NCBI GenBank assembly: GCA_045130665.1
Contig: JBGUQC010000004.1
Coordinates: 635,217-699,216, forward strand
From: Christensenellales bacterium
GTDB taxonomy: Bacteria; Bacillota; Clostridia; Christensenellales; CAG-917
DNA: 64,000 nt
Direction: 5' to 3'
Positions 33,390-53,417 of the stretch are shown here, one piece after another (the stretch's first letter is position 1; each line of letters starts with the position of its first letter). Position numbers and translations under genes: made by a program. A model generated the notes under the pieces. That model did not search any database and was not told where the DNA came from. It worked only from the letters and a program-made list of their open reading frames with translations.

Positions 33390-33392
33390 CTT

Positions 33393-36606: not shown

Positions 36607-38280
36607 TTATTTTCTATTTAATACAACAACTGTCTCAAAGCTCGAATCTTTTTCCCACAACACTTTGTTCACCTCTTCATTGTTTACATAGACGGGGAAA
36701 TTGAACTCGATGGACTTCAATGGTATCTTTGCTTCCTCGTCATTTGGATAGATTTGAACCTCTTTTATGAGATATGACACCAAATCCCGTCGTTCTTCCT
36801 CTGTCATTATATCATAGAATGCTCCGAAAGTCTTTAACATTTCATAGATATTTTCCACCGTCACCCGTTCTTTTTCGATAGACTCCTTACGCAAATTGGC
36901 ATCGTCAAGACAAGATTCGATTTCACTGATTGTATCATACAATGAATCAAGCCGTTTCGTCATATCTGCGATCTTTCTTTCGCGATGAGTTGCGTCCATC
37001 GGCATCGTGTCGATTTCGTGTTCCAACCGAGTTTTGTTAGCAATCACCTCTTTCAGCTTTTTCTCGTAATTGGCAATCTCAGTATCAATCTGCGTAGTGT
37101 CAATCTCCTGCGATATTCTGCGTTGCACTTCTTTTGCAAAAGTCTCGTTTGCAACAAGCAATTTGATTGCCTCGATAACCAGCGGCTCGATATCTGTCTT
37201 GCGGAGTTTGGCTTTATAATCGCACATCTTGCCGCGCTTCCCTCCGCTATGTCCGCAATAGTAATAGTAAACGTCTTTGTATGTCCCATCCCGATTCGTC
37301 CACTCGTGTCGATTACAATACATAATGCCGCCACATTTCGGACAGCGCAGTATTCCCGTTAAAAGATGGGAGCGTTCGCGCCCTTGCTTACACTCCCACT
37401 TTACTCCGGTAGCTATTCGTTTTTCACGAGCCTTGTTCCACATCTCTTCGCTGACGATCCCTTCGTGTTTGCCGTCACTCAAGATATAATCGTCGGTTTC
37501 AACTCTTCTGTATTCGGCTTTCGTGCCTTTCACTTTTTCTTTTGTCCGTCGTCCGAAGGCAATTTTTCCGCAATAAACCGGATTGTCCAAAATGATCTTA
37601 ATGAAATGCCCCGACCAGTCTTCTATCGAGTGCCTTTGATGCGGTCTCTTTTTAAAACCTTGCAAGTTCAGATATTTGGCTATTCCGCCGTAACCCGCTT
37701 TTGTATTTACAAAGCGGTCGTAAATCAAACGGACGATTTCCGCCTCTTTTTCGTCTATTACAAGTTCGTTATTGACAAGTTGGTAACCGAACGGCGGCGG
37801 ACCGCCGTTCCATTTACCTTGTCTTGCTTTTTCTTTACGTCCGTTCATCGTCTGTTCGAGAATATTCTCTCTTTCGATTTCAGCCACAGCCGAAAGAATC
37901 GAAATTAGCAATTTACCGCTCGTTTGAGATGAATCGATTCCTTCTTCTACGCATATCAGTTCTACGCCATACGACTGTATCAATTCCAAAGAGTTCAGAA
38001 TATCAGCGGCGTTTCTGCCAAATCGAGACAGTTTATAAACGATGACGTAATCAACGCCCAATCCGTTTTTAATATCGTTCAGCATCCTTTTGAATTCCGG
38101 ACGCCCTTCGATAGATTTACCGGATTTTCCTGCGTCTTCATATGCACCGACGTGTACCATTTCTTCCCGTTCGGCGTATCTCGTAATGCAATTGGCTTGT
38201 CCTTCCAAACTGTATCCATCTACCTGCATTTCGGTACTTACACGAAGATACATTACATACTTCTTGCCTTCTCTTCTCAT
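36607..38280 (-). CDS. Large serine recombinase (TnpX/TndX-like)
   Basis: N-terminal resolvase catalytic domain YLRVSTEMQ..GYSLEGQ...YKLSRFGRN. This is followed by a recombinase domain, the zinc-ribbon cysteines CPKCGG...C..C, and a C-terminal coiled coil. Confidence 0.9.
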   Translation of the reverse strand: MRREGKKYVMYLRVSTEMQVDGYSLEGQANCITRYAEREEMVHVGAYEDAGKSGKSIEGRPEFKRMLNDIKNGLGVDYVIVYKLSRFGRNAADILNSLELIQSYGVELICVEEGIDSSQTSGKLLISILSAVAEIERENILEQTMNGRKEKARQGKWNGGPPPFGYQLVNNELVIDEKEAEIVRLIYDRFVNTKAGYGGIAKYLNLQGFKKRPHQRHSIEDWSGHFIKIILDNPVYCGKIAFGRRTKEKVKGTKAEYRRVETDDYILSDGKHEGIVSEEMWNKAREKRIATGVKWECKQGRERSHLLTGILRCPKCGGIMYCNRHEWTNRDGTYKDVYYYYCGHSGGKRGKMCDYKAKLRKTDIEPLVIEAIKLLVANETFAKEVQRRISQEIDTTQIDTEIANYEKKLKEVIANKTRLEHEIDTMPMDATHRERKIADMTKRLDSLYDTISEIESCLDDANLRKESIEKERVTVENIYEMLKTFGAFYDIMTEEERRDLVSYLIKEVQIYPNDEEAKIPLKSIEFNFPVYVNNEEVNKVLWEKDSSFETVVVLNRK

Positions 38281-38525
38281 TCTTCCTCCTTGCGACTATC
38301 CGCACCTTGCATTACTTGTTTTCCATACTTTGAAACAATCCCTGCCAAAAACTGATAAAACGCATTTTCATATTCTTTTTGAATTTCTAATTCTGTCTTG
38401 TTCCCTTCCTGTTTTGTATCCAATATCCTTATTCGGACTTACTGCGAAACACTTATTTCGCGTCCTTATTGCTTTGAATACTATGTTCTCTCTTCATTGC
38501 TTTTCCTCCTTATTTTGAAAAGATT

Positions 38526-38822
38526 TTAAGTATTCGGTTTTTTCTTTTCGACATCCTCTAAACCGACAAAGTCTGTTTTTGCGGATTGTTTCTTATTCTT
38601 CGCGTCTGCGCCTGCCGCCATTTCTTTTAACTTCTCATATCCTGCGACAATCAACTGTACTTTGGTAAATCCGCTCGTTTTCAAGAAAGCGTTGATTTCT
38701 TCAAAAAGCGACCTCGGTATCATCGTTCCGAAATTTCCGCTCGTCTGCTTTCTCTTTTCTTTGTTTACTTCTTCGTACTTCCGTCTTGCCGTTCTCTGCG
38801 GTGTGTTCTCTTTCTTTTCCAT
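38526..38822 (-). CDS. Small basic protein with a ribbon-helix-helix-like core
   Basis: 98 aa. FGTMIPRSLFEEINAFLKTSGFTKVQLIVAGYEKLKE fits a strand-helix-helix pattern. AAGGAG RBS. The fold assignment is inference only. Confidence 0.4.
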   Translation of the reverse strand: MEKKENTPQRTARRKYEEVNKEKRKQTSGNFGTMIPRSLFEEINAFLKTSGFTKVQLIVAGYEKLKEMAAGADAKNKKQSAKTDFVGLEDVEKKKPNT

Positions 38823-38836
38823 CGGTCAATTCTCCT

Positions 38837-39199
38837 TTATTTAACGTATACAATCTCGTTTAAGATCTCTTCTTCGATAATCCGTCTTTTCTCTTCCTCT
38901 ACCTGCAAATCGTGCAGGAAGTTACCGTTCCTTTTATACTTCTCTTCTTGGGACAATTTTTCATACATTGCAGTCCACATTCTGTCTGCCGCGGCGTCTA
39001 CACCATGTAAGTATTCCGGTAAATCAACTATCGACCAATATTTTGCAACGTTATGTTCTTCGAGATACTTCTTCGCAAGCGTTCCGTACTTCCCGTAAAC
39101 GTGCTTAACCGGCTTGACAAGTCTTTGATATACCTGTATTTCTTCCACAGTCAAACCCATTCCGGCTTCGGCTTTTCTCATAATTTCTTGTTCGTTCAT
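38837..39199 (-). CDS. TnpV-like transposon protein
   Basis: YGKYGTLAKKYLEEHN...LPEYLHGVD.AA.....M...L....EEILNEIVY matches my recollection of the TnpV family (LGKYG...YL.EH...L...L..ID..A......M...EIVL.ELIY). Start is the ATG at 39199 after GGGAGG. Confidence 0.65.
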   Translation of the reverse strand: MNEQEIMRKAEAGMGLTVEEIQVYQRLVKPVKHVYGKYGTLAKKYLEEHNVAKYWSIVDLPEYLHGVDAAADRMWTAMYEKLSQEEKYKRNGNFLHDLQVEEEKRRIIEEEILNEIVYVK

Positions 39200-39285
39200 C
39201 GTCAACCTCCCATAAATGTTTAGTCGTATCAATACGATACAGTATATCTCTCGCTTTGTCAAGCTCTTTTTTCAACTTTCTTCAG

Positions 39286-40593
39286 CTATTTCGTCCAATT
39301 ATACTTGGTGTTCGGTTTTACTTCCTCATTTGCTTTTACCTCCTCTTGTTTTCTCTTTTCTTCGATTTCCTGTTCGATCTCCTTTAATCGGTTATGACAC
39401 GCGCTCGTGTGCGGATTGAATAGGTCGAACACCGAGGCGAATAGCCCATCGGTGATTCCTCGTATCTTCCGCGCCGAGATGGTCAAGTTGCGTTTTAACG
39501 CCTTGTCGTTGGTCTTGTACTGCCGTTTCGGGTTTCTTTGATATGTTTCCCTTTGAATGTCCCTGACGTGGCGGAGAACGATGTTCCCGAGTCTTCTTCT
39601 GTAATCCCATTCGACCGCTTCTATCGTGTGTAGCGTTTTCAGTCCGTCGCCCAACTCGGTAAAGCCTTCCATATTCTGAACACAGTGAAGTTCGCCATCA
39701 GCTTGATTCTTATACCATCCGCCCATCTTGTCCTGTAGCTTTTCTTTCGTGGCTCGTAGTTCCTTTTTGAAAGCGTCGTCGGCGCGTTGCGCTTCGGAAT
39801 CCATATCAATGAGATAATCGGCGATCATATCAATAAGCGGTCGGTGCGGCTTCATCTCTTTGCTCGCATACCATAACGGTTTGTCCCGTGGCAGTTCGTC
39901 GGCGAGTTCCTTCATCCACTTGCGAACGACGTCGTTGACGTGCGCCCGTCCGTATTCTTCGTTCTTTTGAAGAGCGTCGATCACGGCGTCCCTGCGCTTG
40001 TCCAACTCATCGTCGATGGTGTAGGCGTTCAGCCGTTCCGTCATCTTCTCGATGGCGTCCATCTGTATTTTACCTTTCTTGCGGTAGGTGTAGCCGGCGG
40101 CGCGTTTGTTCTTCACTTTCGGCTCTTTCTCAAAGAACAGGTAGTGGATATGTAGGTGAGTCACTTTGTCCAAGTGCAAGGCGCACATCAAGTCCATATT
40201 GTCGGGATCGAAGCCGGCGTCCTTGAAGAATTGATTGAACGTCTTTTTGACAAGCGCGATACACTTTTCGGGCGTGTCGATGAGGCGAGAGTCTTCCTCG
40301 TTAAAGGAGATAAACCCGTGCCACAAGTTCTTTTCGCCTTCTCTCGCACGTTTCTTGATTTCCTTGACCTCTTCCTTTGACAGCATACCGTTCTGATTGA
40401 ACACGCCCGTGCTCTTTTGCAGATATTCGAGCATCGTGAACTTCGTCGCTTCTTCGCCATATATCTTTCCTTCCGTGGTCATATACTTGTAGATATTGTT
40501 CTCGCCCGACATATCGTAGAAGGCGCGATTCTTGGCGTGTTTCTCTATCTCTTCTTGCGTTGCGTTCTTCGGCAACCGATACGGCGTGTACAA
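39286..40593 (-). CDS. Putative relaxase / mobilisation protein (MOBV-like His motif)
   Basis: ALHLDKVTHLHIHYLF resembles the HxDE..(P)HxH metal-binding motif of Mob/Pre relaxases such as MobM (VHLDESTPHMHM). The start is uncertain: the track uses a TTG with no SD sequence. Confidence 0.55.
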   Translation of the reverse strand: MYTPYRLPKNATQEEIEKHAKNRAFYDMSGENNIYKYMTTEGKIYGEEATKFTMLEYLQKSTGVFNQNGMLSKEEVKEIKKRAREGEKNLWHGFISFNEEDSRLIDTPEKCIALVKKTFNQFFKDAGFDPDNMDLMCALHLDKVTHLHIHYLFFEKEPKVKNKRAAGYTYRKKGKIQMDAIEKMTERLNAYTIDDELDKRRDAVIDALQKNEEYGRAHVNDVVRKWMKELADELPRDKPLWYASKEMKPHRPLIDMIADYLIDMDSEAQRADDAFKKELRATKEKLQDKMGGWYKNQADGELHCVQNMEGFTELGDGLKTLHTIEAVEWDYRRRLGNIVLRHVRDIQRETYQRNPKRQYKTNDKALKRNLTISARKIRGITDGLFASVFDLFNPHTSACHNRLKEIEQEIEEKRKQEEVKANEEVKPNTKYNWTK

Positions 40594-40639
40594 TATATCA
40601 AAGATAACCGGTGATTTGTTTTGTTCTATAATGATTTCC

Positions 40640-40730
40640 TCCTTTTGTTAGTGTGTTTTCCCGTTGTCAAAACGGTTGTCGGGTATCCCGAAACCGTAAA
40701 TCCTTTTGCGGTGAAACTGCAAAAGCTTAG
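40640..40730. other. Candidate oriT region upstream of the relaxase gene
   Basis: TAGTGTGTT lies at 40648-40656. GTTGTC direct repeats sit inside a CCCG...CGGG bracket at 40660-40683. A 7-bp inverted repeat CTTTTGC/GCAAAAG lies at 40703-40725. Confidence 0.3.
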
Positions 40731-40788
40731 CCTGCTTACTTTTTCCTCTTTTTTGCTTCACTTTTGCTTGCAACTTTGCTTTCACGTT

Positions 40789-41493
40789 TTAACCGATAAT
40801 TTCTTTGTAATGCGTCAGGATCTGATACAGGCTCTTGCAATCCGCGTACGCCGTATGTGGCAATACGTAATCCAACATCCACCAGTCAACGTCCGCCGTC
40901 AGGTGTATACTTGACTTGTATATATCGTTCCTTATTTGCGGGTGACGTTGCAAAAATCCGTCCATATCAAGCCGCCCTTGTCGTTCGTCGCTTACTTCTC
41001 TGACTTGATCGGCGGTAACGGGGATACGCTCGGTTCTGCCGCCTTTACTGCCAACTCTGCGCCGGACTTTCGATAGGTCTAACTTCCGCTTTGCGAGCGC
41101 AAAGAACCCGTCGAGCGGCGGTTTCAACGTAGGCGTTTTGTCCTCGAACATATACCCGCAGATGGCTTTGACGTACTGTCCGCTTTGCTTGTCGTCAAGT
41201 AAGGTAAGCGCGTCGTAAAAGTTCTCTTGAAAGGTAAAGTGTTTCATCCGTCTATTCAGTCCCGCGCTCTGCTTGCCGCACTTCACGGCGTCTTTGCTCT
41301 CTTCCAATACGTCCACGAGATTGTCCCAATAGAAACGCTCTTTGCCGTCCGTGATTTCAGTCACAGGCTCATCGGTGAACATGAAGGCGCACATCCGCTT
41401 TGCCATTCGTCCCGCTTCTTCGTCTGTTAAGCCGTTCAGTATCTCGGCGTAAAAGTCGTAGAAGGGGAATTGATTGATTTGTCTTTCTTCCAT
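40789..41493 (-). CDS. Conserved MGE protein with an internally duplicated helical module, function unknown
   Basis: Module A is FPFYDFYAEILNGLTDEEAGRMAKRMCAFMFTDEP and module B is FTFQENFYDALTLLDDKQSGQYVKAICGYMFEDKTP. Strong AAGGAGG RBS. Confidence 0.45.
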   Translation of the reverse strand: MEERQINQFPFYDFYAEILNGLTDEEAGRMAKRMCAFMFTDEPVTEITDGKERFYWDNLVDVLEESKDAVKCGKQSAGLNRRMKHFTFQENFYDALTLLDDKQSGQYVKAICGYMFEDKTPTLKPPLDGFFALAKRKLDLSKVRRRVGSKGGRTERIPVTADQVREVSDERQGRLDMDGFLQRHPQIRNDIYKSSIHLTADVDWWMLDYVLPHTAYADCKSLYQILTHYKEIIG

Positions 41494-41849
41494 TTACTTC
41501 CTCCTTATTTGTGTTTTTGTTTGCCGCCGTTTAACGACCGTCGGCACGTCATTCAGTTGTGCATACGCATCACCTCCCGTTTGATTGATTCGCCCACAAA
41601 AGGGCATAAAAAAGCCGCCGATATGTCCTACCGCCGACTTTGATATTTGTTGTTCAGTTGTGGTTGTCGCTTTCTTTATTACGTCATCAATTACATCTCC
41701 TTGTCAGATTCATAGCATACGAAAACGGAAGTCTTGTGCAGACTCCCGCCTTTGTTGCGTTATTCAGTTTGTCGAGCGAAACGTTTATTCCCCTCTATAA
41801 TATAGCCAGGAGAGCGTTGAAAAATCGTACCCCCTGTTAAAAATTCCGA

Positions 41850-42434
41850 TTATTTGCCGAAAAGTACCTTTAATAAACGCAGTTGTGCTAATTCTTCTTC
41901 AGTTTGTTTTAAGGCGCGCTCGCGCTCTCTCTTACGCTTTCGCGCTTCCTTTCTCTTCTGCCGTTTCTTCCCTTTCTTGGCTTCGATGGCTTGCAAACGG
42001 AGTTTTTCGAGGTTCTCTTCCGCTTTCAGAATGAGTTTGCGGACGGCGCCTTCCGTCACGCCCATCTCTTTGGCAATATCGACTTTCTTCATTTCAAGAT
42101 ACTTGAACTTGAAGTAAGCTTGCGCCTGCCGCGCCGTGAGCCGCGACTCCAACCATTTCTGTTTCCGCTCCAGTCGCTCGTCTTCCATCTGAGCCAATTC
42201 TTCTTCGAGTTCTTCTTCTTCGCGTTTCTCCCACACGGTCTCAATATCCGAATTAGGATCGGCGAACTCAAAACCCGCTTCTTCGAGCATATCCAAAGAA
42301 ACGTGCCGCCGCGTTTCTTTCCGGTTCACTTTCTGCTCGTATTTCTCAAGCTCGTAGAACACTTCCGCGACTTCGTCCGTTACTTCCAATTCTTCTTTAT
42401 GCCCATCGGCAAAGGTGTATAAAATCGTTTTCAT
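41850..42434 (-). CDS. Sigma-70 region-4-like HTH protein
   Basis: LTARQAQAYFKFKYLEMKKVDIAKEMGVTEGAVRKLILKAEENL is a region-4/LuxR-type HTH. It is followed by a Lys/Arg/Glu-rich tail. Confidence 0.55.
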   Translation of the reverse strand: MKTILYTFADGHKEELEVTDEVAEVFYELEKYEQKVNRKETRRHVSLDMLEEAGFEFADPNSDIETVWEKREEEELEEELAQMEDERLERKQKWLESRLTARQAQAYFKFKYLEMKKVDIAKEMGVTEGAVRKLILKAEENLEKLRLQAIEAKKGKKRQKRKEARKRKRERERALKQTEEELAQLRLLKVLFGK

Positions 42435-42450
42435 TTTATCGATTATTCAG

Positions 42451-44781
42451 CTATTTTATCATTATAATTGCGCCAGTATATGTATCTATTTTGTATTTAA
42501 TTTCTATATTTAAGATGACATACTCTTTATGTAATGCTCTTGCAACATCTTCCCTTGACATAAAAATGCTTTTATAGACATATTGACCATCAGGACGTTT
42601 ATACTTTTCAACTTCTTGTTCTAGATTTTCTCCGTCCAAATCATCGGCCTCAAACTTTACGATGTTACAATTAAAAGAGAATCCATCTTTTAAAATGAAT
42701 ACCGGCTTAAAGAAAATGTGGCTCTTAATCTTTTCTGCTTTTTCCATTTTCTTTTGATAAGATTGTTTTATCTCCTCATCTTTAATAGCATACCAATGAC
42801 GAATAGCTCCGCCATTAACGTACTGAATGTTCTTTGTCAGTAGATCTTTTGCATGTTCATCAAAAAGGTTTTCTCTTTCTATAATTTCTACATAATCATT
42901 TTCAATTTTAGTCCCTATTTCATGCAGAATTCCCCGAACGAATGAATCAATGATAACTTCGTCAAAATTGATCGCATCTGATGCTCTTTCGCACAAAACG
43001 GAAAGATATCTTGATTGTTCGTTTTTAATGTCTATAGCTTTATTAAAGCCCCATTCTTCCTCAACTTTACTTTCTATAGCAGGACCATATTTGTTTTCTA
43101 TATCCCTATTGCTGACTTTAGATGCTTGTTTAATCGTTTCCTCCAACTCATCCTTTTTCAACTCATCTAAATACGATTTAAAAGTATGTTCTCTTTCTTC
43201 CAAATTAATAAAAGCATCAAATACCGTTTGGTCTAATGAATAAAAGCCTACCATTTTTATCATTTTTTCAGAAGGGTGAAAACTCATGCCATCAAAGCAC
43301 TGTTTTTCAAACTCTTTTAGGTGAAAACTTATTTTCTCAAACAAACTCTTGTAATCATAATCATATATCTTCTCACTCAAAAACAGAGTTGTCAAGAACC
43401 AATCTGAAGCAAAATTCTCATCCAAAACAACGCTGTGCATAAATCCACTATAAAGCATAAATTCTAAAATAGAACTGTTTTCATTGAAAATTGTCATAAA
43501 GTCATTATAATTAGCGGCACAATTTTGCACATAGAACTTGAACATATTATTCCAAGAAACTATCGCTGTATTATCGGTAACCCCTGAATAAGCCATGAAG
43601 TCCTTAATATGCTCTTTTACAGTCTCAGTGGTATCTATCTCGCATTCTGCCAAATAGTATAAATACATACTTATAAGAGCAAACATTGTGGTTGATAACG
43701 AATCACTCCCTAGCATAAAATAGTTGACTGAATAATGCTTCCTAATTGTTTCCAGCAGATAAAAATCATTATATTTGATAGTAGTAGACAGGATTGATAG
43801 AATAACAGCTTCCGTAAAACAATCTTTTGTGCTTAAAGTCTCCTCATGTTTATTATAAAAAGACAATAAACCAGCAATAAATTCGGCTGTTTTTTCTCGA
43901 GATTGCGTATTCATCAACAATCTATAGATTGTCCTAGAAACATAATGTTTGCAGTTTGTTATTTCATCACCAATTATTGTGTAGATGTCAAAGTTCCACC
44001 ACAGAATATCCGAAACCGAATCGGTTAAAGCACGAGCAACCGTCTTAAATTCCTTATGATCGTTTATTGTATCAAGATCGAATGATGTTTTTTGTAGGTA
44101 ATCTAAAAGAGAATACAATACCTTTTTGTTATATTCGGGATAATCATCCTCTTTTAGCGCATCATATACAACACTAATATTCTTATCTTTTAACTGAAAA
44201 GAAACAGCTTTGTCAAAATCTATAGACAAAGGATCTGTTGCCTTTAAGGGAACGATGAATCTATTTTTGATGATTTTTTGCATGGCTTTTTCACTTGCCA
44301 TCATATATGGAATTTCCATATACAAAATATAAATACAAAAAATAAAAATCGCCAATGTAATACCCATGCACAATACCATTTGAGAGCATAAGTAAAAAAT
44401 GACATCCAAGAATAATGTGCTAAACGATATTATAGCACAAGCCCTCAGTGAGAAATGCTTGTCTACACGCATAGAGTATAGTTTACTTACTGTAATTCCG
44501 AATTGCTCATTATGTTGCAAAGAAACAGAAATACCCAAGATCGATACTATACAACAGACTATAGCCGCTATAACTTGACAAGAAATGCCTATTGCATTAA
44601 CAATAGATTCGCAACCATTCAACCAACGAAAGTGTTGCTCTATTATATCTAACACTATTGAAACAACGAGCAATATAACTGTAATTGAAATAATGAAATA
44701 GAATGAACCATTCTTTATTGCAGGAAACAACAGTTCGCTGCCTTTATTGTTTGAGTTTTTCTTTTCTTCCGTATCTCCCAT
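42451..44781 (-). CDS. 776-aa protein: four N-terminal TM helices plus a ~600-aa cytoplasmic domain with no recognisable motif
   Basis: Long uninterrupted ORF that starts 4 nt after the helicase-MTase stop. I found no Walker, PLD, HD, TIR or SIR2 motif. Composition is AT-rich, unlike its neighbours. Confidence 0.6.
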   Translation of the reverse strand: MGDTEEKKNSNNKGSELLFPAIKNGSFYFIISITVILLVVSIVLDIIEQHFRWLNGCESIVNAIGISCQVIAAIVCCIVSILGISVSLQHNEQFGITVSKLYSMRVDKHFSLRACAIISFSTLFLDVIFYLCSQMVLCMGITLAIFIFCIYILYMEIPYMMASEKAMQKIIKNRFIVPLKATDPLSIDFDKAVSFQLKDKNISVVYDALKEDDYPEYNKKVLYSLLDYLQKTSFDLDTINDHKEFKTVARALTDSVSDILWWNFDIYTIIGDEITNCKHYVSRTIYRLLMNTQSREKTAEFIAGLLSFYNKHEETLSTKDCFTEAVILSILSTTIKYNDFYLLETIRKHYSVNYFMLGSDSLSTTMFALISMYLYYLAECEIDTTETVKEHIKDFMAYSGVTDNTAIVSWNNMFKFYVQNCAANYNDFMTIFNENSSILEFMLYSGFMHSVVLDENFASDWFLTTLFLSEKIYDYDYKSLFEKISFHLKEFEKQCFDGMSFHPSEKMIKMVGFYSLDQTVFDAFINLEEREHTFKSYLDELKKDELEETIKQASKVSNRDIENKYGPAIESKVEEEWGFNKAIDIKNEQSRYLSVLCERASDAINFDEVIIDSFVRGILHEIGTKIENDYVEIIERENLFDEHAKDLLTKNIQYVNGGAIRHWYAIKDEEIKQSYQKKMEKAEKIKSHIFFKPVFILKDGFSFNCNIVKFEADDLDGENLEQEVEKYKRPDGQYVYKSIFMSREDVARALHKEYVILNIEIKYKIDTYTGAIIMIK

Positions 44782-44785
44782 ATAT

Positions 44786-47700
44786 TTACTCCATAGGTTT
44801 GATCATCGCCTCGATGAAAGCGATTTCGGATTCATCGAGGTTGTATATAGCGTATAATTGCTTGTCGATCTCGGGAACAGACTTCGACCAATCAATATCG
44901 GACTTGGCGGTAAAGTCTTGCATGGGAACAAACTTCCAGACTTTTTTTGTATTGTCTTGGGTGACTTTTAATATGCCCAACAATGTCCTTGCAAATTTCG
45001 ACTTAATATATTTCAAAACAGCTTCGGCTTCTGATTTCGAAGATGTTTCTCCCGCAGAAATATAGGTTTCGGTATAGCCGATCAACGGCGAGCCGATCAA
45101 CGGCGTAGATAACACTTCTCCAATTGCGCCCGATCCATTTGCTTTAGGAAACATAACTTTATACTTGTATAGATTATCTATTGGCGCCAAGTAGTCTTTC
45201 CTAAACCACCTATACACTCTATTGCTCCCAATATTCCCAAGCAATTGAATGTAGTCTTTACCATCATTAGGCTTATCCACTGTAAACAAAGCCGGCATAC
45301 GCTCAAATGCACTGGTTGAGATTCTTCTATCGGATGTTTTCTTCATCTCTTCAGGATGTTCTTCGTAAACTAAATCAGAAAACCTATATTGACCTCTGTT
45401 CAAAATAGTATCCGCGAAACTCTCGGTTGTTATAGCCCAAACTTTATTCTTGATGCTGTTTAACTCTTCATAGGAACAATACATTCCTATTGCGCCAAAG
45501 TTTGTCTTTGAATCTCTGTATGTAATTGCCACGCCACCCTTGATATCTACGTTGGGAAATACCTCGGAACTATCAGAAGTATAATACAAAACTTTGAAGT
45601 GTTCGTCCGAAAGAACTTTTTCATTCCAACTTGAAGGCGTTGCACCGGCATTGAATAAGAAACGAGCAGGCGTTATAAAACTAACTTTTTCTGACAACCT
45701 AAACGCAACATCCATGAACAGGTGATATATCGGTTTATCATTAACCGAACTTGCAACCGCTTCTTGATACGGCGGGTTTCCTACTACTGCGTCGAATTTC
45801 ATTTCTGCTACTCCTTTATTCCAATAACTGCCTCTCGTGACTTTTGCGCGGAATTGTTCCGGTTTCTCTTTTAGTTGGTTGATTAAGTCCTCAAAATAGT
45901 GGGCGTTTGCCTTTGTGCCGGAATATCCACAAAGGGTACGAATGGTGATATATTTTGCCATTTCCGTCTTGCAAATAACGAAGACGTTTTCTTTTACGGT
46001 CAAGTTCCATAGTTCGCGTTGTTTTTCGAGCGTCAATTCCTCTTGGCACTCCTCGCAACGCTTACGGTATATGCTGTAGGTGACGTACAACGGATACAAG
46101 CCTGTTTTGGAATTGATCTCCAATATCCGCGCGGAGGTATTGGCGAGCGTATCCGACGTCACTTTGCCGCGATCGACAAAACGAGGTTCTTCTATCGTTT
46201 CCTCGTGGTTTTCGTCGTAGAAATCATACCCGCCCAAACAATCGCTAATGTGCATATTGACGACGCGCCACGGCGTAAGCACCGTTTCTTTGTCGGGATT
46301 CTTGAAAGTAGCAAACAAAGCGGATATCTTTTGCACTCTTTCGGTGGGAGAGAGTAAGTCGGCGGCTTTTGCCAATTGACGGATACGACGACCGGCGGCA
46401 ATGAAGATATCGGCGTCATAATATTTTGCAAACTTTTTGAAAAGTTCTTTGGTGACGCCTTGCCCCTTGTTCTCCTTATCCTTCGACTCGTTCTTGGGCA
46501 TAAACTCTTTCCAAGATGCGTCGTCGATCAGATCGGTGAAGTTGTCGATGGTAATATCCTTATCAATAGGAATGTTCGCGCCGTAAATCAAAAGCGGTAT
46601 GCGTACGGATATGCCGCGCAAAATGGAAATGGCTTTTTGTTTATTATCTTGTTTCTTCTTTTTCTCCTCAAGGAAAGCGATCTCTTCGGGTGTGCGCTCT
46701 TTTTTCGGTTTACGCTCGATTCGTTCCAACTCCTCGTATTCTTCATCGGTAAACCCTTGATTGTTGACGTCAACGGTTTCCACTTTTTTGGATTGTTTAC
46801 TTGCGCCGATGATCTTTTTCAAGTCTTCAAAGTCTTTGAGTTCCAGTCCATCCAACTTCATCAGGTTGTCGTTGTAAATATGGATATCGTCGAAGCCGTT
46901 GCGGACAACCCTATCGGTATAGACGCGCTTGAGTTGTTGCAACAATCCGTCCACGTTATAGGGGAGCATATTGGAGCCTTCCACTGCAATAACGGGGCAG
47001 AAGTTGAGGAACTCGCCCATGATCACTTTATCACTGGATGTATCGCCGGCTCGTGTGGAAAGCCGTCCGGCTTCGGCAACGACTTTCAATGTCCTATCCG
47101 GCGCAAAGTCAAAGACATAGCATTCTTCTTTGATCTTACCGTTGATATTGGCGGGCGACTGCACACGGAAAATGGTCTGCATATAACTGGATGCAGACGT
47201 TGAAAACGTACCCGCAAGCATAAAGACCGCCGTCCATTCGGGAACGGTCACACCTGTAGTCAATCGACCACAAGAAAGAGTGATCGAATACGTTTCGGCG
47301 GGATTATCTCCGAAGGCGTCCTGCACCTTCTTCAACGCTTCGGCAGACTTTTCTTCCTCGTCGCCGCTTCCCGCGACGTTTGCGATATTAAAGTGTTTGA
47401 AAACAGGGTGCTGTTTGAGAAGCGCCGACAAAGCGCGGGCTTCTTTTACGCCCGGAACCATCCACAAAGAGTGACGGAAATAATTGCGATACTCTTCGGT
47501 AGAGTACGGGTAGTTGCTGTTTTCATCCGTCTTGCAAAGGAGATTGAGAAAACTCTCCACGTCGGCTTTGTGTACAAAGTCGCCGACTTTTGCATTCGAC
47601 GGAATCGCTTTGAAGTCCTTCTCGGGTTTTCCCGTCCAAGTGCGGAAGAACTCGTGGAAGTTGAAAGCGGAGTCCTCGGCGTCAATATATCCGGGGATCA

Positions 47701-48823
47701 ATTTATCAAGATTATAGGTGAAGATTTGCAGTTTGGGCAACGTCGCATAAGGATTACTGTCGCCAAAGTGATATTTGTCCCACTCGGCTTTCGCTTTCTG
47801 CTCCATCACATAATCCCACGTATAAATCTCTTGCTCGCTGAACTTGCTGACGATATTGAAGGGCGTACCCGACAATTCAAGAAGTTTCGGCTTCTTGGGG
47901 TGGTCGTTCAAAAGTTCTATAACCGTTTGACCGAGTTTCGTTTGCGTCCCTTCGTGCGCCTCGTCAATGATGACGAAATCCCATTCAATCAAAAACTCCA
48001 GTATGTTTTTATCGAATTTGCCGCCGACCGCTTCACTACCACGCAAATCTTGTATGGAAGCGAAATAAACGAACTTATTGTCGTCCTTTTCTATGAGTTT
48101 TTCAATTGTTTCGCCCTGCGTTTTCGAGCCGAATTGATAATCGGTATCGTAAAAGATCTTTTCAAAATCCTCGAACCAACCTTTACTGACAACGGGGCGG
48201 TGGGTAATAATGATCGTCTTTTGGAAGCCGCATTCCTTGGCGACTTGCAAGGCGGTCAAAGTTTTGCCGAAACGCATTTTTGCGTTCCAAAGCATATGGT
48301 CGTTGGTCTTAAATCTTGCGACCGTTTCTTTAATTGCTTTCTTTTGTTCGGGACGGAACAAAATAGGCGTTCTTCCTGTGGACACTTCCGTTGCCGTTAA
48401 AGATTTTCGACCTTCTTTAACTGCTTTGATCGCATTCTTTGCCGTTTCCAAATCAACGGGGAACCATTCGACGCCTTTCTTTTCATCCTTAAACTCATGG
48501 CGCGTAATGCCTGAGCGGATCAACACGGAATGAACCGCTTTATCAGAGAAAGAACGTAGTTTCTTTTTGCCATTGACCATTTCTTCGCGCACGGCAAGTT
48601 CCGTATACAGCAAATCGTAGGAGATCGCCGCCGTTTGCGTGTATTGGTCAATACGTTTCTTGGCGGCAACGTTTAATTCTCTGCAATTCGGGAAAAGCAA
48701 GTTGGGCGTTTTGTCCGAGCGTAAAGTGGCTTCGCCGATTTTCAGCAAGCCTTTATGTTCTTTGTCGTTTATGCCGAAGACATAAATCAACGTATATGTA
48801 AAGGTTGACGTAAACTGACTCAT
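44786..48823 (-). CDS. Single-polypeptide T5orf172(GIY-YIG-like) / SF2 helicase / gamma-class N6-adenine MTase / C-terminal specificity-like region
   Basis: N-terminus reads LIYVFGIND..GLLKIGEATL...VEWF. Helicase motifs are Walker A RFGKTLTA (GKT 48260-48268), DEAH IIDEAHEG (47954-47965) and LSGTPF. MTase motifs are ETVLTPWRVVNMH, ILEINSKTGLYPLY and VVGNPPYQ (NPPY 45767-45778). The tail is LYAIYNLDESEIAFIE. Confidence 0.8.
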   Translation of the reverse strand: MSQFTSTFTYTLIYVFGINDKEHKGLLKIGEATLRSDKTPNLLFPNCRELNVAAKKRIDQYTQTAAISYDLLYTELAVREEMVNGKKKLRSFSDKAVHSVLIRSGITRHEFKDEKKGVEWFPVDLETAKNAIKAVKEGRKSLTATEVSTGRTPILFRPEQKKAIKETVARFKTNDHMLWNAKMRFGKTLTALQVAKECGFQKTIIITHRPVVSKGWFEDFEKIFYDTDYQFGSKTQGETIEKLIEKDDNKFVYFASIQDLRGSEAVGGKFDKNILEFLIEWDFVIIDEAHEGTQTKLGQTVIELLNDHPKKPKLLELSGTPFNIVSKFSEQEIYTWDYVMEQKAKAEWDKYHFGDSNPYATLPKLQIFTYNLDKLIPGYIDAEDSAFNFHEFFRTWTGKPEKDFKAIPSNAKVGDFVHKADVESFLNLLCKTDENSNYPYSTEEYRNYFRHSLWMVPGVKEARALSALLKQHPVFKHFNIANVAGSGDEEEKSAEALKKVQDAFGDNPAETYSITLSCGRLTTGVTVPEWTAVFMLAGTFSTSASSYMQTIFRVQSPANINGKIKEECYVFDFAPDRTLKVVAEAGRLSTRAGDTSSDKVIMGEFLNFCPVIAVEGSNMLPYNVDGLLQQLKRVYTDRVVRNGFDDIHIYNDNLMKLDGLELKDFEDLKKIIGASKQSKKVETVDVNNQGFTDEEYEELERIERKPKKERTPEEIAFLEEKKKKQDNKQKAISILRGISVRIPLLIYGANIPIDKDITIDNFTDLIDDASWKEFMPKNESKDKENKGQGVTKELFKKFAKYYDADIFIAAGRRIRQLAKAADLLSPTERVQKISALFATFKNPDKETVLTPWRVVNMHISDCLGGYDFYDENHEETIEEPRFVDRGKVTSDTLANTSARILEINSKTGLYPLYVTYSIYRKRCEECQEELTLEKQRELWNLTVKENVFVICKTEMAKYITIRTLCGYSGTKANAHYFEDLINQLKEKPEQFRAKVTRGSYWNKGVAEMKFDAVVGNPPYQEAVASSVNDKPIYHLFMDVAFRLSEKVSFITPARFLFNAGATPSSWNEKVLSDEHFKVLYYTSDSSEVFPNVDIKGGVAITYRDSKTNFGAIGMYCSYEELNSIKNKVWAITTESFADTILNRGQYRFSDLVYEEHPEEMKKTSDRRISTSAFERMPALFTVDKPNDGKDYIQLLGNIGSNRVYRWFRKDYLAPIDNLYKYKVMFPKANGSGAIGEVLSTPLIGSPLIGYTETYISAGETSSKSEAEAVLKYIKSKFARTLLGILKVTQDNTKKVWKFVPMQDFTAKSDIDWSKSVPEIDKQLYAIYNLDESEIAFIEAMIKPME

Positions 48824-49797
48824 CTGTGCCTCCCGTCAAGCAAAGTGACGAACTTTACTTTCTTTCCCTTTTCCCAATCCATAACGTAACAATAAATGCC
48901 GTTATGACGGTTTCTGTTGTTTTTCAAACAGCCTTCGCATTCTTCGATTTTCGGCTCGTCGAATAAAGATAACTGCATTGATTCCATCTTGTGGCAACTG
49001 TTGGGAATGACGAATTTCAGTCCGTCCATCTGCCATATATTCCACGCAAGTATCTCGGCGATCTCGCGCAGGTATTCTCTTATCGGATACACACCGAACT
49101 TGTCTTCGTAGTAGTCGCAGAATGTAAAGAGTAGGTTTTCACGAGCGAGAAGGACGTTATCCCCCTGCCAGTCATAGCCGTAAATGCTCTTATATGCTTC
49201 TTTCGCCCACGCGTACCACTCTTGCTCGCCGTCGGTATTTTCGGAAACAATACGGAGTTTTCTGTCCAATAGCCCGATGCGGTTTTTAACGGGTATCACT
49301 TCGCCCGTAACGGTATCGTAGCGACTGGCAAGATAGGGCGCTTCGCCGCAGGTAATCTCAAGGCGTTGCGCCTTAACGTAGTCTTGCCACGTTTTGCCGT
49401 CGGGGAAGGTCAATTTTTCTTCATTTGTCATCCAACCTTTTTCCGTTTCGGTATTAAAGACGTTTTCATGCCCAAACCAAGCATTGTCGATGAGATTGTT
49501 TTGTTTATTGCATATCCACGATGGCGTGAATACTTCGGCTTTGTCACGGACACGAGAGAGTTGCTCTTGTTTGGTCTTCTCGGTGCGCGGCTTGATGAGA
49601 TTGCCGTTCGCTCCGGTGATGGCATAGACGTCGATATGGTCGTTTTTGCCGTAGCCGAAACCTTTTTGAGAATAGTTATCCGTAGCCCAAATGAGATTCT
49701 TACCCGAAGAATTGTCTTTGAGCAGAAAAGACAAAAGAGATGCGTCCATCTCCAGTATCTTATTCTCTTTTACATCAACTCTAATCTCTTTTGCCAT
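48820..49797 (-). CDS. MTase-fold-like protein lacking a catalytic (D/N)PP(Y/F) motif
   Basis: KAEVFTPSWICNKQNNLID is motif-X-like and RLEITCGEAPYL is motif-I-like (compare M.TaqI LEPACAHGPFL). YGYDWQGDNVLLARENLL is also present, with no NPPY anywhere. The stop overlaps the next start as ATGA. Confidence 0.5.
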   Translation of the reverse strand: MAKEIRVDVKENKILEMDASLLSFLLKDNSSGKNLIWATDNYSQKGFGYGKNDHIDVYAITGANGNLIKPRTEKTKQEQLSRVRDKAEVFTPSWICNKQNNLIDNAWFGHENVFNTETEKGWMTNEEKLTFPDGKTWQDYVKAQRLEITCGEAPYLASRYDTVTGEVIPVKNRIGLLDRKLRIVSENTDGEQEWYAWAKEAYKSIYGYDWQGDNVLLARENLLFTFCDYYEDKFGVYPIREYLREIAEILAWNIWQMDGLKFVIPNSCHKMESMQLSLFDEPKIEECEGCLKNNRNRHNGIYCYVMDWEKGKKVKFVTLLDGRHR

Positions 49798-49877
49798 TCG
49801 TTTTTTATCCTTATTTCTCCTGTCCTATTTTACCACTTTTCGTCGTAAAAATCAATGCCGCCGTAGCCCTACTATGA

Positions 49878-49906
49878 ATAATATCGTATCCATTTTACTT
49901 TGTAAA
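49878..49906 (-). promoter_or_regulatory. Promoter of the RM-like operon
   Basis: On the minus strand: TTTACA (49906-49901), a 17-nt spacer, then TATTAT (49883-49878). It lies about 80 nt upstream of the ATG at 49797. Confidence 0.5.
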
Positions 49907-49993
49907 CCGCCATCTGTCCCAATATGGGTACTCCTTGACTTATTCGTTTCGGAGCATATCAGCTTTCCTATTCCATACAAAGCACTCCCAACT

Positions 49994-50698
49994 CTAAATG
50001 CGTATTGTTAAGCTGTCTAACAAAACCCACTGTGTTTGATTTGAGTAATCAATTGTGCCTTCGTTTGCACAGTCGTTTATATCCATTGCGAATTTCATTC
50101 TGAACGGTTCAGACAAACAGTTTTTTAAGTTTATGATATTCGTCCACAAAGAACCGTTACCGTCGCCGAAACTACATTTCTTCAAATTCTTGTTGTCCAA
50201 CAAAAAACGATTATGGCTTACTTCGTTTCGCAATGCGATAACAGCGTCAAGGTCGCGAGATAGTTTATCAATTTTATTAAGATAAAGAGGGAATAACTCT
50301 TGCTTATCTGTTTCAGGCAACTTTTTCGCTTGCGATATCAATTGCCCGAACGTTAGGGAAGATAACGCGCTGAAAAAGCCATCGCCTGAATCCAAGTAAC
50401 GTTGTAACTGTAAAGTATGTATTATTGCTCCACTATTATCGCTATATTTGTTTGAAATAAACGCGCGAATGCTTTCTTCCAAAAGACCAATATATTTATA
50501 AAGAACACGACGTATCCGTTTATCGTAGCGGAAAGCGGTGGCAATTTCGGCATAAGAAACTTTTTCACCGGAAAGGCTTTCCAGGTGTTGGCGAACGTGA
50601 TCGTGTTCGTCAATGCCACGGTATTGAAGATAATGAACCGACTTCTTTTTCTCTTCTTCGGTTATTATTATTTTTTCCCAAAACTCTTCGTACGTCAT
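49994..50698 (-). CDS. Abi_2 (AbiD/AbiF-like) HEPN-domain protein
   Basis: FRYDKRIRRVLYKYIGLLEESIRAFI plus IALRNEVSHNRFLL. The latter contains the R-x4-H HEPN motif, R157..H162, at 50213-50230. Confidence 0.7.
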   Translation of the reverse strand: MTYEEFWEKIIITEEEKKKSVHYLQYRGIDEHDHVRQHLESLSGEKVSYAEIATAFRYDKRIRRVLYKYIGLLEESIRAFISNKYSDNSGAIIHTLQLQRYLDSGDGFFSALSSLTFGQLISQAKKLPETDKQELFPLYLNKIDKLSRDLDAVIALRNEVSHNRFLLDNKNLKKCSFGDGNGSLWTNIINLKNCLSEPFRMKFAMDINDCANEGTIDYSNQTQWVLLDSLTIRI

Positions 50699-50705
50699 AA
50701 TAAGG

Positions 50706-51326
50706 CTAATCGCAAATCTCGTTGATTGCTTGGATCAATATCGAAAACGAAGCAATATCATCTTGCTTGGACAAGTGCTGATTCTTCAACTTAAGATATC
50801 TCGCGCGCAAATCATTCCACTTTCCGGCGTCCTTTATCGCTTTGATTTTTGTTTGGTAATTACGCGAATTACGAACTTCATTCCAGTAATACTGTCCGGT
50901 CGCTTTATTGTGTACGATCTTCAGATAGTTGCCGTTGTTTCCTTCGCACATAATGGCAACGTCGAAAGAAAAGTGTAAGCGGTTCCCGAAAATCAACTTC
51001 GACGTTATCACCGAAGTAGAGTTTTCCGCAGGTTTAAAGCCCAAATCGGGATTCGTTTCGTTAAACGCTTGAATGAACAGTTCCTTTATCTTTTTGGGAT
51101 TGTTTATCAGCCCTTGCTTGTCCTTTTGTAGAATAAAATTGTAGTCCAGATCAAACTCGCCATTCTCTCCGTTTTGGGTGATAAGGTTATTGCTTCCACT
51201 ACCGATCAGAACGAATTGAAAAGTAAAGTAATCTTTAAGCCAACTCTGTTGAACGTTCTTAATAATGGTTTCGCAAGCGTTTTTTAATTCTCTTAATTCC
51301 TGTTTATCGTATACGTAATCAAACAT
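50706..51326 (-). CDS. Minimal Pol-beta-superfamily nucleotidyltransferase with a helical C-terminal region
   Basis: VLIGSGS-x13-DLD, with DLD at 51144-51152, gives the GS...DxD signature. A third acidic strand reads HFSFDVAIM. AGGAGA RBS. Confidence 0.65.
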   Translation of the reverse strand: MFDYVYDKQELRELKNACETIIKNVQQSWLKDYFTFQFVLIGSGSNNLITQNGENGEFDLDYNFILQKDKQGLINNPKKIKELFIQAFNETNPDLGFKPAENSTSVITSKLIFGNRLHFSFDVAIMCEGNNGNYLKIVHNKATGQYYWNEVRNSRNYQTKIKAIKDAGKWNDLRARYLKLKNQHLSKQDDIASFSILIQAINEICD

Positions 51327-51349
51327 TATTATTCTCCTAAAACATTTTT

Positions 51350-53224: not shown

Positions 53225-53254
53225 TTGCTTGGCTCCTATATGTTAATCATCTAT

Positions 53255-53333: not shown

Positions 53334-53417
53334 GCCGATAAAATATTTAAATATATATTAAAAAAACCAGAAACCCTATCAAAAGCCTATTGTAAAATCA
53401 TATAAAAAACATTTTTC

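What the first reader, a model, noticed from the sequence alone, without database searches (positions are those of the whole stretch)
42451..44781. 776-aa four-TM protein of unknown fold welded to the end of the RM-like operon
Seen: aa ~25-165 contain four hydrophobic helices. The remaining ~600 aa are helix-rich with many Tyr/Phe/Asp/Glu residues. I found no Walker A, PLD HxK, HD, TIR, SIR2 or protease motif. The gene starts 4 nt after the helicase-MTase stop and ends 16 nt before the sigma-like gene. Its composition is strikingly AT-rich compared with both neighbours. Inference: large membrane proteins attached to nucleic-acid-sensing modules often act as abortive-infection effectors. This could be such an effector, or a sensor coupling envelope events to the RM-like motor. 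The composition suggests modular acquisition from an AT-rich donor.
Basis: inference. Interest (0 to 1): 0.7.

Follow-up and report, generated by a model that had tools for sequence, protein, structure and literature searches.

The report
Swappable membrane-protein cassette behind restriction genes
The 776-residue membrane protein is a real gene from a rare, unnamed family. It sits in a swappable cargo slot just after a restriction-modification-like gene pair on a mobile element, a slot that holds known or suspected cell-suicide defence genes in sister elements, so it is a good untested candidate for a new anti-phage gene.

Summary
Window 42451-44781 (-) encodes a 776-aa protein with four N-terminal TM helices. 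It starts 4 nt after the helicase-methyltransferase stop and ends 16 nt before the sigma-like gene. Its GC is 0.32, against 0.45 and 0.48 for the neighbours.

It has no Pfam, NCBIfam or PADLOC hit and no significant PDB or BFVD fold match. An exhaustive profile search still finds about 205 clusters, mostly about 780 aa. All recovered loci with an organism title are uncultured Clostridia. A 58-sequence AF2 model (pLDDT 90.5) shows an N-in/C-in 4-TM bundle, a cytoplasmic all-alpha solenoid and a C-terminal alpha/beta domain.

The decisive result is comparative. In copies of the same mobile element (helicase-MTase 92-97% identical), homology breaks exactly at the ORF's edges. The same slot then holds bSEFIR (a validated single-gene defence), a RES-domain protein, a 171-aa unknown, DndB-like genes, or nothing plus a terminator. 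All cargos are AT-rich.

Family members also occur without any RM gene, in ICEs, integrase islets and beside a retron-type RT. About 6 of 15 lineages do lie directly after helicase-type RM genes.

Best reading: a self-contained membrane abortive-infection or defence cassette, co-expressed with the RM pair but not dependent on it. The function is untested.

The parts
42451..44781 (-). Target gene. It encodes a 776-aa member of an unannotated family of about 780-aa proteins.
   Evidence: ORF. Family of about 205 clusters at 50% identity, mostly full-length. dN/dS 0.15-0.27. AF2 pLDDT 90.5, pTM 0.77.
44302..44709 (-). N-terminal 4-TM bundle (aa 25-160), N-in/C-in. It contains the most conserved polar residues: Q69, S80, S87, Q89, G95, R105, E156 and P158.
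   Evidence: Hydropathy. AF2 helices. Family-wide K+R counts are 5.3, 1.3, 4.2, 0.2 and 5.2 for the N-terminus, loop 1, loop 2, loop 3 and the post-TM4 segment.
43042..44292 (-). Cytoplasmic all-alpha solenoid-like region (aa 164-580), with invariant W410 and W461.
   Evidence: AF2 secondary structure. The only Foldseek similarities are weak ARM/HEAT-type hits, TM-score 0.1-0.18. Invariant columns.
42454..43029 (-). C-terminal alpha/beta domain (aa 585-776) carrying the family signature Y[KR]RxDGQYVYEGxFxxREE (D731, G732, Y734).
   Evidence: A 172-aa fragment of this domain alone occurs in L016 and L017.
44789..44792 (-). GGAG Shine-Dalgarno-like motif inside the last codons (ATG GAG TAA) of the helicase-MTase gene, 7 nt before the target ATG. 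The 4-nt spacer is 44782-44785.
   Evidence: Junction alignment. The bSEFIR, RES and L021 cargos all start 2-4 nt after the same ...CCTATGGAGTAA/G end.
42440..44784 (-). The exchangeable cassette, defined as the interval lacking homology to the sister element L029.
   Evidence: blastn: window 49953..44785 and 42439..36632 match L029 at about 89% identity, and nothing matches between them.
44786..48823 (-). Conserved upstream gene, 1345 aa. Domains: probable T5orf172 N-terminus, ResIII/DEAD helicase, and Eco57I-type N6-adenine MTase (Type IIG/ISP-like).
   Evidence: Pfam and PADLOC. T5orf172 scores 19.0 bits against a cutoff of 20 on the isolated N-terminus, and is annotated on the 68%-identical P0196.
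48820..49797 (-). Companion 325-aa DNA methyltransferase. Its stop overlaps the helicase-MTase start. It is always found with that gene.
   Evidence: PADLOC MTase_II, E 2e-125. It is 64-93% identical in every related locus.
41850..42434 (-). Sigma-70 region-4-like 194-aa gene. It is the first backbone gene of the mobile element and forms the right flank of the slot.
   Evidence: Pfam Sigma70_r4_2. 89% identical in L029/L030. A 43-codon remnant follows the RES cassette in L026/L027.
36607..54658 (-). Integrative mobilisable element of about 18 kb that carries the slot. It encodes a large serine recombinase, TnpV, a MobL-like relaxase and DUF6291, and lies next to a rumA-like tRNA-U5 methyltransferase gene.
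   Evidence: Pfam. MobL similarity. GC 0.45 against a host GC of 0.34. The same element sits at the same gene in L029/L030.

Best explanation
The ORF is a functional gene of a rare, uncharacterised protein family. The family has a 4-TM bundle (N-in/C-in), a cytoplasmic alpha-solenoid and a C-terminal alpha/beta domain.

In this genome it is the current occupant of an exchangeable, AT-rich cargo slot. The slot lies between a conserved two-gene RM-like module (a 325-aa MTase plus a T5orf172?-helicase-MTase) and the backbone of a serine-recombinase integrative mobilisable element. The gene is co-transcribed with the helicase-MTase gene. It is probably also translationally coupled to it, through a GGAG motif in that gene's last codons.

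Most likely it is a self-contained anti-phage or anti-MGE protein of the abortive-infection type. In this model the cytoplasmic solenoid and C-terminal domain sense an infection cue, and the conserved polar 4-TM bundle then permeabilises or depolarises the membrane. It would act as a second defence layer beside the RM pair and would not depend on it.

Shown: gene reality, architecture, topology, cassette boundaries, slot polymorphism, and contexts in mobile elements and defence islands.

Inferred: the defence role, the sensing, the membrane killing, and independence from the RM pair.
For: 1. Real, constrained family. 205 clusters, 80 of them with E<1e-30, mostly full-length. dN/dS is 0.15-0.27. 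AF2 pLDDT is 90.5.

2. Exact cassette. Homology to L029 stops at 44785 and resumes at 42439.

3. Polymorphic slot. At the same junction, 92-97%-identical backbones carry bSEFIR plus a 379-aa protein (L028), a RES-domain protein (L026/L027) or a 171-aa unknown (L029/L030). More distant backbones (69-73% identical) carry DndB/DpdB-like plus a 267-aa protein, or nothing plus a terminator hairpin.

4. bSEFIR is an experimentally validated single-gene defence (preprint 10.1101/2022.05.11.491447). RES domains are NAD-targeting toxins (my own knowledge).

5. All slot cargos are AT-rich: GC 0.31-0.36 against 0.44-0.45 for the backbone.

6. Autonomy. Family members occur without RM genes. Examples are an ICE with ArdA, PcfJ and PcfK (L013, L022-24), an integrase-DUF6291 islet (L004), a site next to a retron-type RT_VI and an AbiO/Nhi-like SLFN helicase (L002), one after a transposase near Abi_2 (L012), and one near DUF3846 and an integrase (L005/L008).

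7. The RM pair is self-sufficient. It is found without a third gene in metagenomes and on Lactococcus, Enterococcus and Lysinibacillus plasmids.

8. Conserved residues give no enzyme-like motif. The conserved polar positions cluster in TM2, cytoplasmic loop 2 and the end of TM4. This fits a pore or gating role better than catalysis.
Against: - There is no experimental evidence, and no homology or significant fold similarity to any known defence or pore protein.
- The context sample is small (about 15 lineages) and was not compared with a statistical background.
- In about 6 of 15 lineages the gene lies directly after a helicase-type RM gene (window, L021, L025, L019, L009-11, L016/17). In window, L021 and L019 the gap is only 2-14 nt. 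This hints at more than co-location.
- Slot neighbours being defence genes is guilt by association.
Confidence: 0.5

Rival explanations
1. RM-dependent effector or accessory. The membrane protein works with ATP-dependent helicase-type restriction enzymes. It could be a back-up suicide effector released when the RM enzyme is inhibited or stalled (PrrC/EcoprrI-like guarding). Alternatively it could be a membrane anchor or sensor that places the RM motor at the DNA entry site.
For: The gene lies directly downstream of, and co-directional with, SF2-helicase RM-type genes of at least four different kinds:
- window and L021 (2-4 nt gap) and L025, after a ResIII-Eco57I fusion;
- L019, after an SNF2 helicase plus a Type IIG MTase (14 nt gap);
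- L009-11, after an N6_N4 MTase plus ResIII;
- L016/17, where a fragment lies 30 nt after a Res-like fragment.
L006 sits beside a divergent Type III-like cluster.

The gene shares an SD motif embedded in the RM gene. Two other slot occupants are short toxin-domain proteins, bSEFIR and RES, and the RES protein has no antitoxin-like ORF next to it in the called genes.
Against: - The RM pair is found with no third gene and with unrelated third genes at 69-97% identity.
- The family occurs in at least 7 lineages with no RM gene in the flanks seen.
- bSEFIR, which occupies the same slot, works alone.
- The upstream partners belong to different RM families, which argues against a specific protein-protein interface.
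Confidence: 0.2
2. Non-defence accessory membrane protein of mobile elements. Examples would be a transporter, a channel, an envelope-adaptation factor, an entry-exclusion factor or an addiction factor. In this reading it merely hitch-hikes in variable cargo regions.
For: The family is carried by ICEs and IMEs, next to LRR surface proteins, sigma factors and conjugation genes in L003, L013 and L022-24. No known defence model hits it. Cargo hotspots also carry non-defence genes (my own knowledge).
Against: - The same slot holds defence or toxin genes.
- Neighbours elsewhere include a retron-type RT, an AbiO/Nhi-like helicase, Abi_2, Type IIG and Type III RM genes, and Macro plus AAA plus S8.
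- A 600-aa cytoplasmic domain on only 4 TM helices is not a typical transporter layout.
- There is no hit to any Pfam or NCBIfam transporter family.
Confidence: 0.2
3. Superinfection-exclusion-type protein that blocks phage DNA injection at the membrane without killing the cell.
For: It is membrane-anchored, encoded on a mobile element and needs no enzymatic motif.
Against: Known Sie proteins are small and prophage-encoded (my own knowledge). This family gave no hit in 50,697 phage genomes or in IMG/VR. Almost all of its mass is cytoplasmic.
Confidence: 0.07

Closest known systems
bSEFIR (bacterial SEFIR-domain single-gene defence system; Millman et al. 2022 preprint 10.1101/2022.05.11.491447)
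   Same: It occupies the identical slot, 4 nt after the stop of a 97%-identical helicase-MTase (L028). It is a single AT-rich ORF using the same embedded GGAG motif.
   Different: bSEFIR is a soluble SEFIR/TIR-type protein. The target has no SEFIR or TIR domain and no sequence similarity to it, and it has a 4-TM bundle instead.
Membrane-acting abortive-infection effectors (lambda RexB 4-TM channel, Kiwa KwaA, CBASS/Pycsar TM effectors, retron 2TM effectors). This comparison is from my own knowledge.
   Same: A multi-TM domain is joined to, or partnered with, a cytoplasmic sensing part. They occur in defence-island and mobile-element contexts. They have no catalytic motif.
   Different: No PADLOC model of these families hits the target. 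The target is far larger. The solenoid plus DGQY-motif domain is not known in any of them. Membrane damage has not been shown.
PrrC-EcoprrI type RM-guarding abortive-infection genes (from my own knowledge)
   Same: A suicide-type gene embedded in, and co-transcribed with, an ATP-dependent RM operon.
   Different: PrrC is an ABC-ATPase anticodon nuclease and is strictly linked to its RM system. Here the RM pair and the TM family each occur without the other.
DnmA-YeeB-YeeC cluster, and Type ISP/IIG single-chain RM enzymes (relevant to the upstream gene, not the target)
   Same: The same three activities are present: an Eco57I/MmeI-type MTase, an SF2 helicase and a T5orf172 nuclease-like domain (PMC9973331).
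   Different: Here the three are fused in one 1345-aa chain and paired with a separate 325-aa MTase. Restriction activity is untested. The B. subtilis cluster gave no phage protection.
Defence hotspots in mobile elements, such as P2/P4 hotspots, SXT hotspot 5 and the 'Hma-embedded candidate' (HEC) systems listed in PADLOC (concept from my own knowledge; HEC model names appear)
   Same: Conserved flanks bracket a slot where unrelated defence genes replace each other.
   Different: This slot is a single-gene-scale position, fixed 2-4 nt after an RM gene in a Clostridial serine-recombinase IME. I found no description of it.

Membership tests
Any curated protein family (Pfam-A, NCBIfam) | Significant profile match | tested here: not met
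   0 families, even at E<=5, for the whole protein and for the isolated C-terminal domain. The only hit was Spa1_C at E 1.5.
Known or candidate defence proteins in PADLOC-DB v2 | Match to one of 5027 defence models | tested here: not met
   0 families at E<=0.01.
Known folds (PDB, BFVD) | Foldseek E<=1e-3 with a meaningful TM-score | tested here: not met
Defence-hotspot cargo (functional class) | Conserved flanks with unrelated genes, including validated defence genes, alternating at the same site | tested here: met
   Breakpoints at 44785 and 42439. Alternative cargos are bSEFIR, RES, a 171-aa protein, DndB-like genes, or none.
Membrane abortive-infection effector (functional class) | Integral membrane domain | tested here: met
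   Four TM helices, N-in/C-in.
Membrane abortive-infection effector (functional class) | Infection-triggered membrane permeabilisation or growth arrest that protects the population | not testable with these tools
   This needs phage challenge and membrane-potential assays.
Obligate RM accessory subunit | Consistent co-occurrence with one RM family in both directions | tested here: not met
   About 6 of 15 TM-family lineages follow a helicase-type RM gene, and these RM genes are of four different kinds. The RM pair occurs without the TM gene in every other related locus examined: L026-L030, L032-L043 and the plasmids.
Prophage superinfection-exclusion proteins | Encoded by phages or prophages | tested here: not met
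   No tblastn hit in 50,697 phage records. No confirmed hit in IMG/VR.

The most novel reading that the evidence does not exclude
The protein founds a new class of single-chain defence proteins. In this reading the C-terminal alpha/beta domain has an HK97/encapsulin-like capsid-protein topology. It would act as a decoy or sensor that engages phage capsid-assembly components and triggers the conserved polar 4-TM bundle to collapse the membrane.

The only support is recurring weak Foldseek hits:
- encapsulin 8dnl and 8dn9, prob 0.98-1.0, TM-score (target-normalised) 0.33-0.35;
- several phage major capsid proteins and unnamed phage proteins, prob 0.57-1.0;
- each alignment covers about 235-300 columns.

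I could not check which residues are aligned.
Probability: 0.07. Interest if true: 0.85.

Novelty: new variant of a known kind. Interest (0 to 1): 0.58.

Why it matters
If the protein is a defence gene, it adds a family with no detectable relatives among known systems. The family is confined so far to uncultured gut Clostridia, where defence repertoires are poorly charted.

The finding also defines a precise, easily searchable hotspot: the position 2-4 nt after the ...ATGGAGTAA end of a very common MTase plus helicase-MTase pair. This could be mined across thousands of loci for further single-gene defence candidates.

Finally, it offers a natural set of near-isogenic elements that differ only in slot cargo (TM protein, bSEFIR, RES or empty). 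These could be used to test whether RM systems and abortive-infection cargos cooperate.

Tried and rejected
- Word-indexed homology search with the single protein, and with a 58-sequence profile, gave only 2-3 hits. The exhaustive profile search was needed.
- The first AF2 run, with 2 sequences, was useless: pLDDT 38.
- Pattern search with the 58-sequence alignment failed. A 20-sequence subset worked.
- IMG/VR, phage-genome and plasmid searches found no family member.
- megablast of the whole island against phages and plasmids found nothing.
- A profile hit to PBP2a residues 150-318 (E 6.5e-5, 24 bits, bias 4.5) covers a mostly helical stretch of the model. The alignment is rich in K, E, D and N. 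I treat it as compositional.
- ARM/HEAT-type Foldseek hits have TM-scores of 0.1-0.18. They only say 'alpha-solenoid'.
- The idea that the 172-aa protein in L016/L017 is a free-standing version of the C-terminal domain was rejected. It starts with a non-ATG codon, 30 nt after a truncated Res-like gene, and looks like a deletion remnant. The upstream 559-aa ORF does not match the family HMM.
- The idea that the AT-richness marks this gene as unusual for the genome was rejected. The host is equally AT-rich, and it is the element backbone that is GC-rich.
Full report
**Observation.**
- It starts 4 nt after the stop of a 1345-aa ORF (44786..48823). It ends 16 nt before a 194-aa ORF (41850..42434).
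- Hydropathy and a confident AF2 model both give four TM helices: 25-51, 58-88, 112-131 and 135-160.
- Regex searches confirm the absence of Walker A, PLD, HD, HExxH, GxSxG and CxxC motifs.
- GC is 0.321, against 0.447 and 0.479 for the two neighbours.
- Two corrections apply. The last ~190 residues are an alpha/beta domain, not helical. The host background in the window is itself 0.335-0.345 GC, so the GC-rich stretch 36.6-54.7 kb is the foreign DNA and the target gene sits at host-like GC.

**The gene is real and belongs to an unnamed family.**
- Pfam, NCBIfam and PADLOC give nothing, even at E<=5.
- The word-indexed search of 5.8 billion proteins found only the protein itself and one 36%-identical relative.
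- The exhaustive HMMER search of 1.84 billion representatives found 205 clusters with E<=1e-3 and 80 with E<=1e-30. Nearly all full-length hits are 760-810 aa and align end to end.
- dN/dS between moderately diverged pairs is 0.15-0.27.
- All recovered loci that carry an organism title are uncultured Clostridia MAGs.
- tblastn finds no member in 72,556 plasmids or 50,697 phage genomes, and none was confirmed in IMG/VR.

**Architecture.**
With a 58-sequence alignment, AF2 gives pLDDT 90.5 and pTM 0.77. The model has three parts:
- a 4-TM bundle;
- an all-alpha solenoid (aa 164-580);
- an alpha/beta domain (aa 585-776).

Family-wide K+R counts are 5.3 for the N-terminus, 1.3 for loop 1, 4.2 for loop 2, 0.2 for loop 3 and 5.2 after TM4. 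This puts both termini and the 600-aa soluble part in the cytoplasm.

The best-conserved positions fall in three groups:
- polar residues of TM2 and cytoplasmic loop 2 (Q69, S80, S87, Q89, G95, R105), plus E156-x-P158 at the end of TM4;
- W410 and W461, which are invariant;
- the C-terminal signature Y[KR]RxDGQYVYEGxF.

Nothing resembles a catalytic motif.

**Surroundings in the window.**
- The GC-rich block is an integrative mobilisable element of about 18 kb. It encodes a large serine recombinase (36607-38280), TnpV, a MobL-like 435-aa protein, DUF6291 and the sigma-r4-like 194-aa gene. It lies next to a rumA-like tRNA-U5 methyltransferase gene.
- Upstream of the target are a 325-aa DNA MTase (PADLOC MTase_II, E 2e-125) and the 1345-aa protein.
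- The 1345-aa protein carries ResIII/DEAD and Eco57I domains and matches Type IIG REase-MTase models.
- Its N-terminus is probably a T5orf172 domain: 19.0 bits against a cutoff of 20 when scanned alone, and the domain is annotated on a 68%-identical homologue.
- This is a fused analogue of the DnmA-YeeB-YeeC cluster (PMC9973331).
- The MTase overlaps the helicase-MTase start. No terminator-like site separates the four genes.

**The decisive comparison.**
The helicase-MTase family is huge: at least 8000 hits with E<1e-20. I looked at what follows near-identical copies.
- In L029/L030 (92% identical protein) the whole element is the same, at about 89% nucleotide identity. Homology runs 49953..44785, stops, and resumes at 42439..36632. 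The non-homologous interval is exactly the target ORF. L029 has a 683-bp segment with a 171-aa ORF instead.
- In L028 (97%) the gene starting 4 nt after the stop is a 360-aa SEFIR/TIR protein. It matches the PADLOC bSEFIR model at E 1e-50. A bacterial SEFIR protein alone protected B. subtilis from phi29 (preprint 10.1101/2022.05.11.491447).
- In L026/L027 (97%) the gene at +4 nt is a 312-aa RES-domain protein. It is followed by a 43-codon remnant of the sigma-like gene.
- At 69% identity the slot holds a DndB/DpdB-like gene plus a 267-aa ORF.
- At 73% identity the slot is empty, and a terminator hairpin follows the stop directly.
- On Lactococcus, Enterococcus and Lysinibacillus plasmids the MTase plus Eco57I-domain pair has no tightly linked third gene.
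- The 325-aa MTase is present with the helicase-MTase in all metagenomic loci that include the upstream region.
- All cargos start 2-4 nt after a conserved ...CCT ATG GAG TAA/G end. That end supplies a GGAG 7-8 nt before their ATG.
- All cargos are AT-rich: GC 0.31-0.36 against 0.44-0.45.

So the RM-like pair is a self-sufficient two-gene core, and the target is one of at least six alternative states of a cargo slot.

**The family seen from its own side.**
I recovered about 15 independent lineages with usable flanks. I annotated them by ORF clustering, Pfam and PADLOC.

Six lineages lie directly after, and co-directional with, SF2-helicase RM-type genes:
- the window itself;
- L021, which has the same three-gene unit (MTase 64% identical, 2-nt gap) followed by MobL;
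- L025, where the helicase-MTase is 49% identical;
- L019, with an SNF2 helicase plus a Type IIG MTase and a 14-nt gap;
- L009-11, with a tyrosine integrase, an N6_N4 MTase and ResIII;
- L016/17, where a C-terminal fragment follows a Res-like fragment.

L006 sits between a divergent ResIII-TnsA / N6_N4 MTase / UvrD-PD-(D/E)XK cluster and Macro plus AAA plus subtilase genes.

The remaining lineages have no RM gene in view:
- L002/L015: after an AbiO/Nhi-like SLFN helicase and a MazG-like gene, and before an integrase fragment and a retron-type RT_VI;
- L004: between a tyrosine integrase and a DUF6291 gene 50% identical to the window's;
- L005/L008: near DUF3846 and an integrase;
- L012: after an rve transposase, with an Abi_2 gene related to the window's;
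- L013/L022-24: an ICE with ArdA, PcfJ and PcfK, found on 18 contigs;
- L014: after DUF2971;
- L003 and L001: unknown neighbours.

No neighbour is conserved across the family. Family genes are AT-rich everywhere: GC 0.24-0.36 regardless of flank.

That condition is not met.

**Interpretation.**
What is shown: the gene, its architecture and topology, the exact cassette, the slot polymorphism, and the contexts in mobile elements and defence islands.

What is inferred:
- The protein is a defence gene. This is guilt by location with bSEFIR, RES and other defence neighbours.
- It acts autonomously. The family and the RM pair each occur without the other, and the upstream partners are heterogeneous.
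- The cytoplasmic solenoid and C-terminal domain sense a cue, and the conserved polar 4-TM bundle damages the membrane. The absence of a catalytic motif and the location of conserved polar residues at the membrane-cytosol interface point this way.

I put this reading at about 0.5. A genuine functional link to helicase-type RM enzymes, as guard or anchor, keeps about 0.2 because of the recurrent immediate-downstream position. A non-defence accessory membrane function keeps about 0.2. An injection-blocking exclusion role is unlikely.

**Novelty.**
Hotspot cargo and membrane abortive-infection effectors are known kinds. This family has no detectable sequence or fold relative among them, and I found no description of this particular slot in the literature searched. 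I rate it a new variant of a known kind. Interest is moderate to good, and the claim is readily testable.

Noticed in passing
window 36607-54658: An ~18-kb serine-recombinase integrative mobilisable element (TnpV, MobL-like relaxase, DUF6291, sigma-like gene) at GC 0.45 in a host of GC 0.34. It is inserted beside a rumA-like tRNA-U5 methyltransferase gene (54658-56310). The same element, at about 89% nucleotide identity, sits at the same gene in L029/L030.
   Followed up: partly
window 49954-54658: A second variable cargo region of the element. Here it holds Abi_2 (49994-50698), a 206-aa unknown, AAA-ATPase_like plus PDDEXK_9 (51350-53224) and a 377-aa unknown. L028/L029 carry DUF4365, two unknowns and AAA_14 plus DUF4143 at the same place.
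   Followed up: partly
window 44786-48823 (aa 1-160): The N-terminus of the helicase-MTase looks like a T5orf172 (GIY-YIG-like) domain (KIGxT...EWF). It scores 19.0 bits against the Pfam cutoff of 20. This would make the protein a fused YeeC-YeeB-DnmA-like single-chain enzyme. No Mrr or PD-(D/E)XK nuclease domain was seen.
   Followed up: partly
window 31710-35834: A very AT-rich block (GC 0.29-0.31). It holds an 813-aa TMEM164 plus ABC-ATPase fusion, with weak PADLOC hits to mad3, mad8 and AbiLi-type ATPases. It also holds a 559-aa ABC_tran_2 protein. The block lies just outside the recombinase end of the element.
   Followed up: no
model of window 42451-44781: Recurring weak Foldseek matches to HK97-fold proteins: encapsulin 8dnl and 8dn9, and phage major capsid proteins. 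They cover about 235-300 columns, with prob up to 1.0 but TM-score (target-normalised) only 0.2-0.4. I could not see which residues align.
   Followed up: no
window 42451-44781, profile positions 462-621: The family profile hits PBP2a/MecA residues 150-318 at E 6.5e-5 (24 bits). This is probably compositional (K/E/D/N-rich), but it was not formally excluded.
   Followed up: partly
L016 3545-4063 and L017 10055-10573: A 172-aa fragment equal to the family's C-terminal domain (49% identical to aa 597-772). It lies 30 nt after a truncated Type III Res-like ORF and before a Schlafen AlbA_2 / HATPase_c_4 / HTH gene. It is apparently a deletion remnant of an RM plus TM-protein pair.
   Followed up: partly
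L021 6874-7022 vs window 44933-44786: The last ~150 nt of the helicase-MTase gene are 71% identical at DNA level between the window and L021. The proteins as a whole are only 24-31% identical. The 3' end of the RM gene may therefore travel with, or act as a recombination arm for, the cargo cassette.
   Followed up: no
L006 12296-16785: Downstream of a family member lies a Macro-domain protein followed by an AAA ATPase and a Peptidase_S8 subtilase. The set looks like another defence-type module.
   Followed up: no
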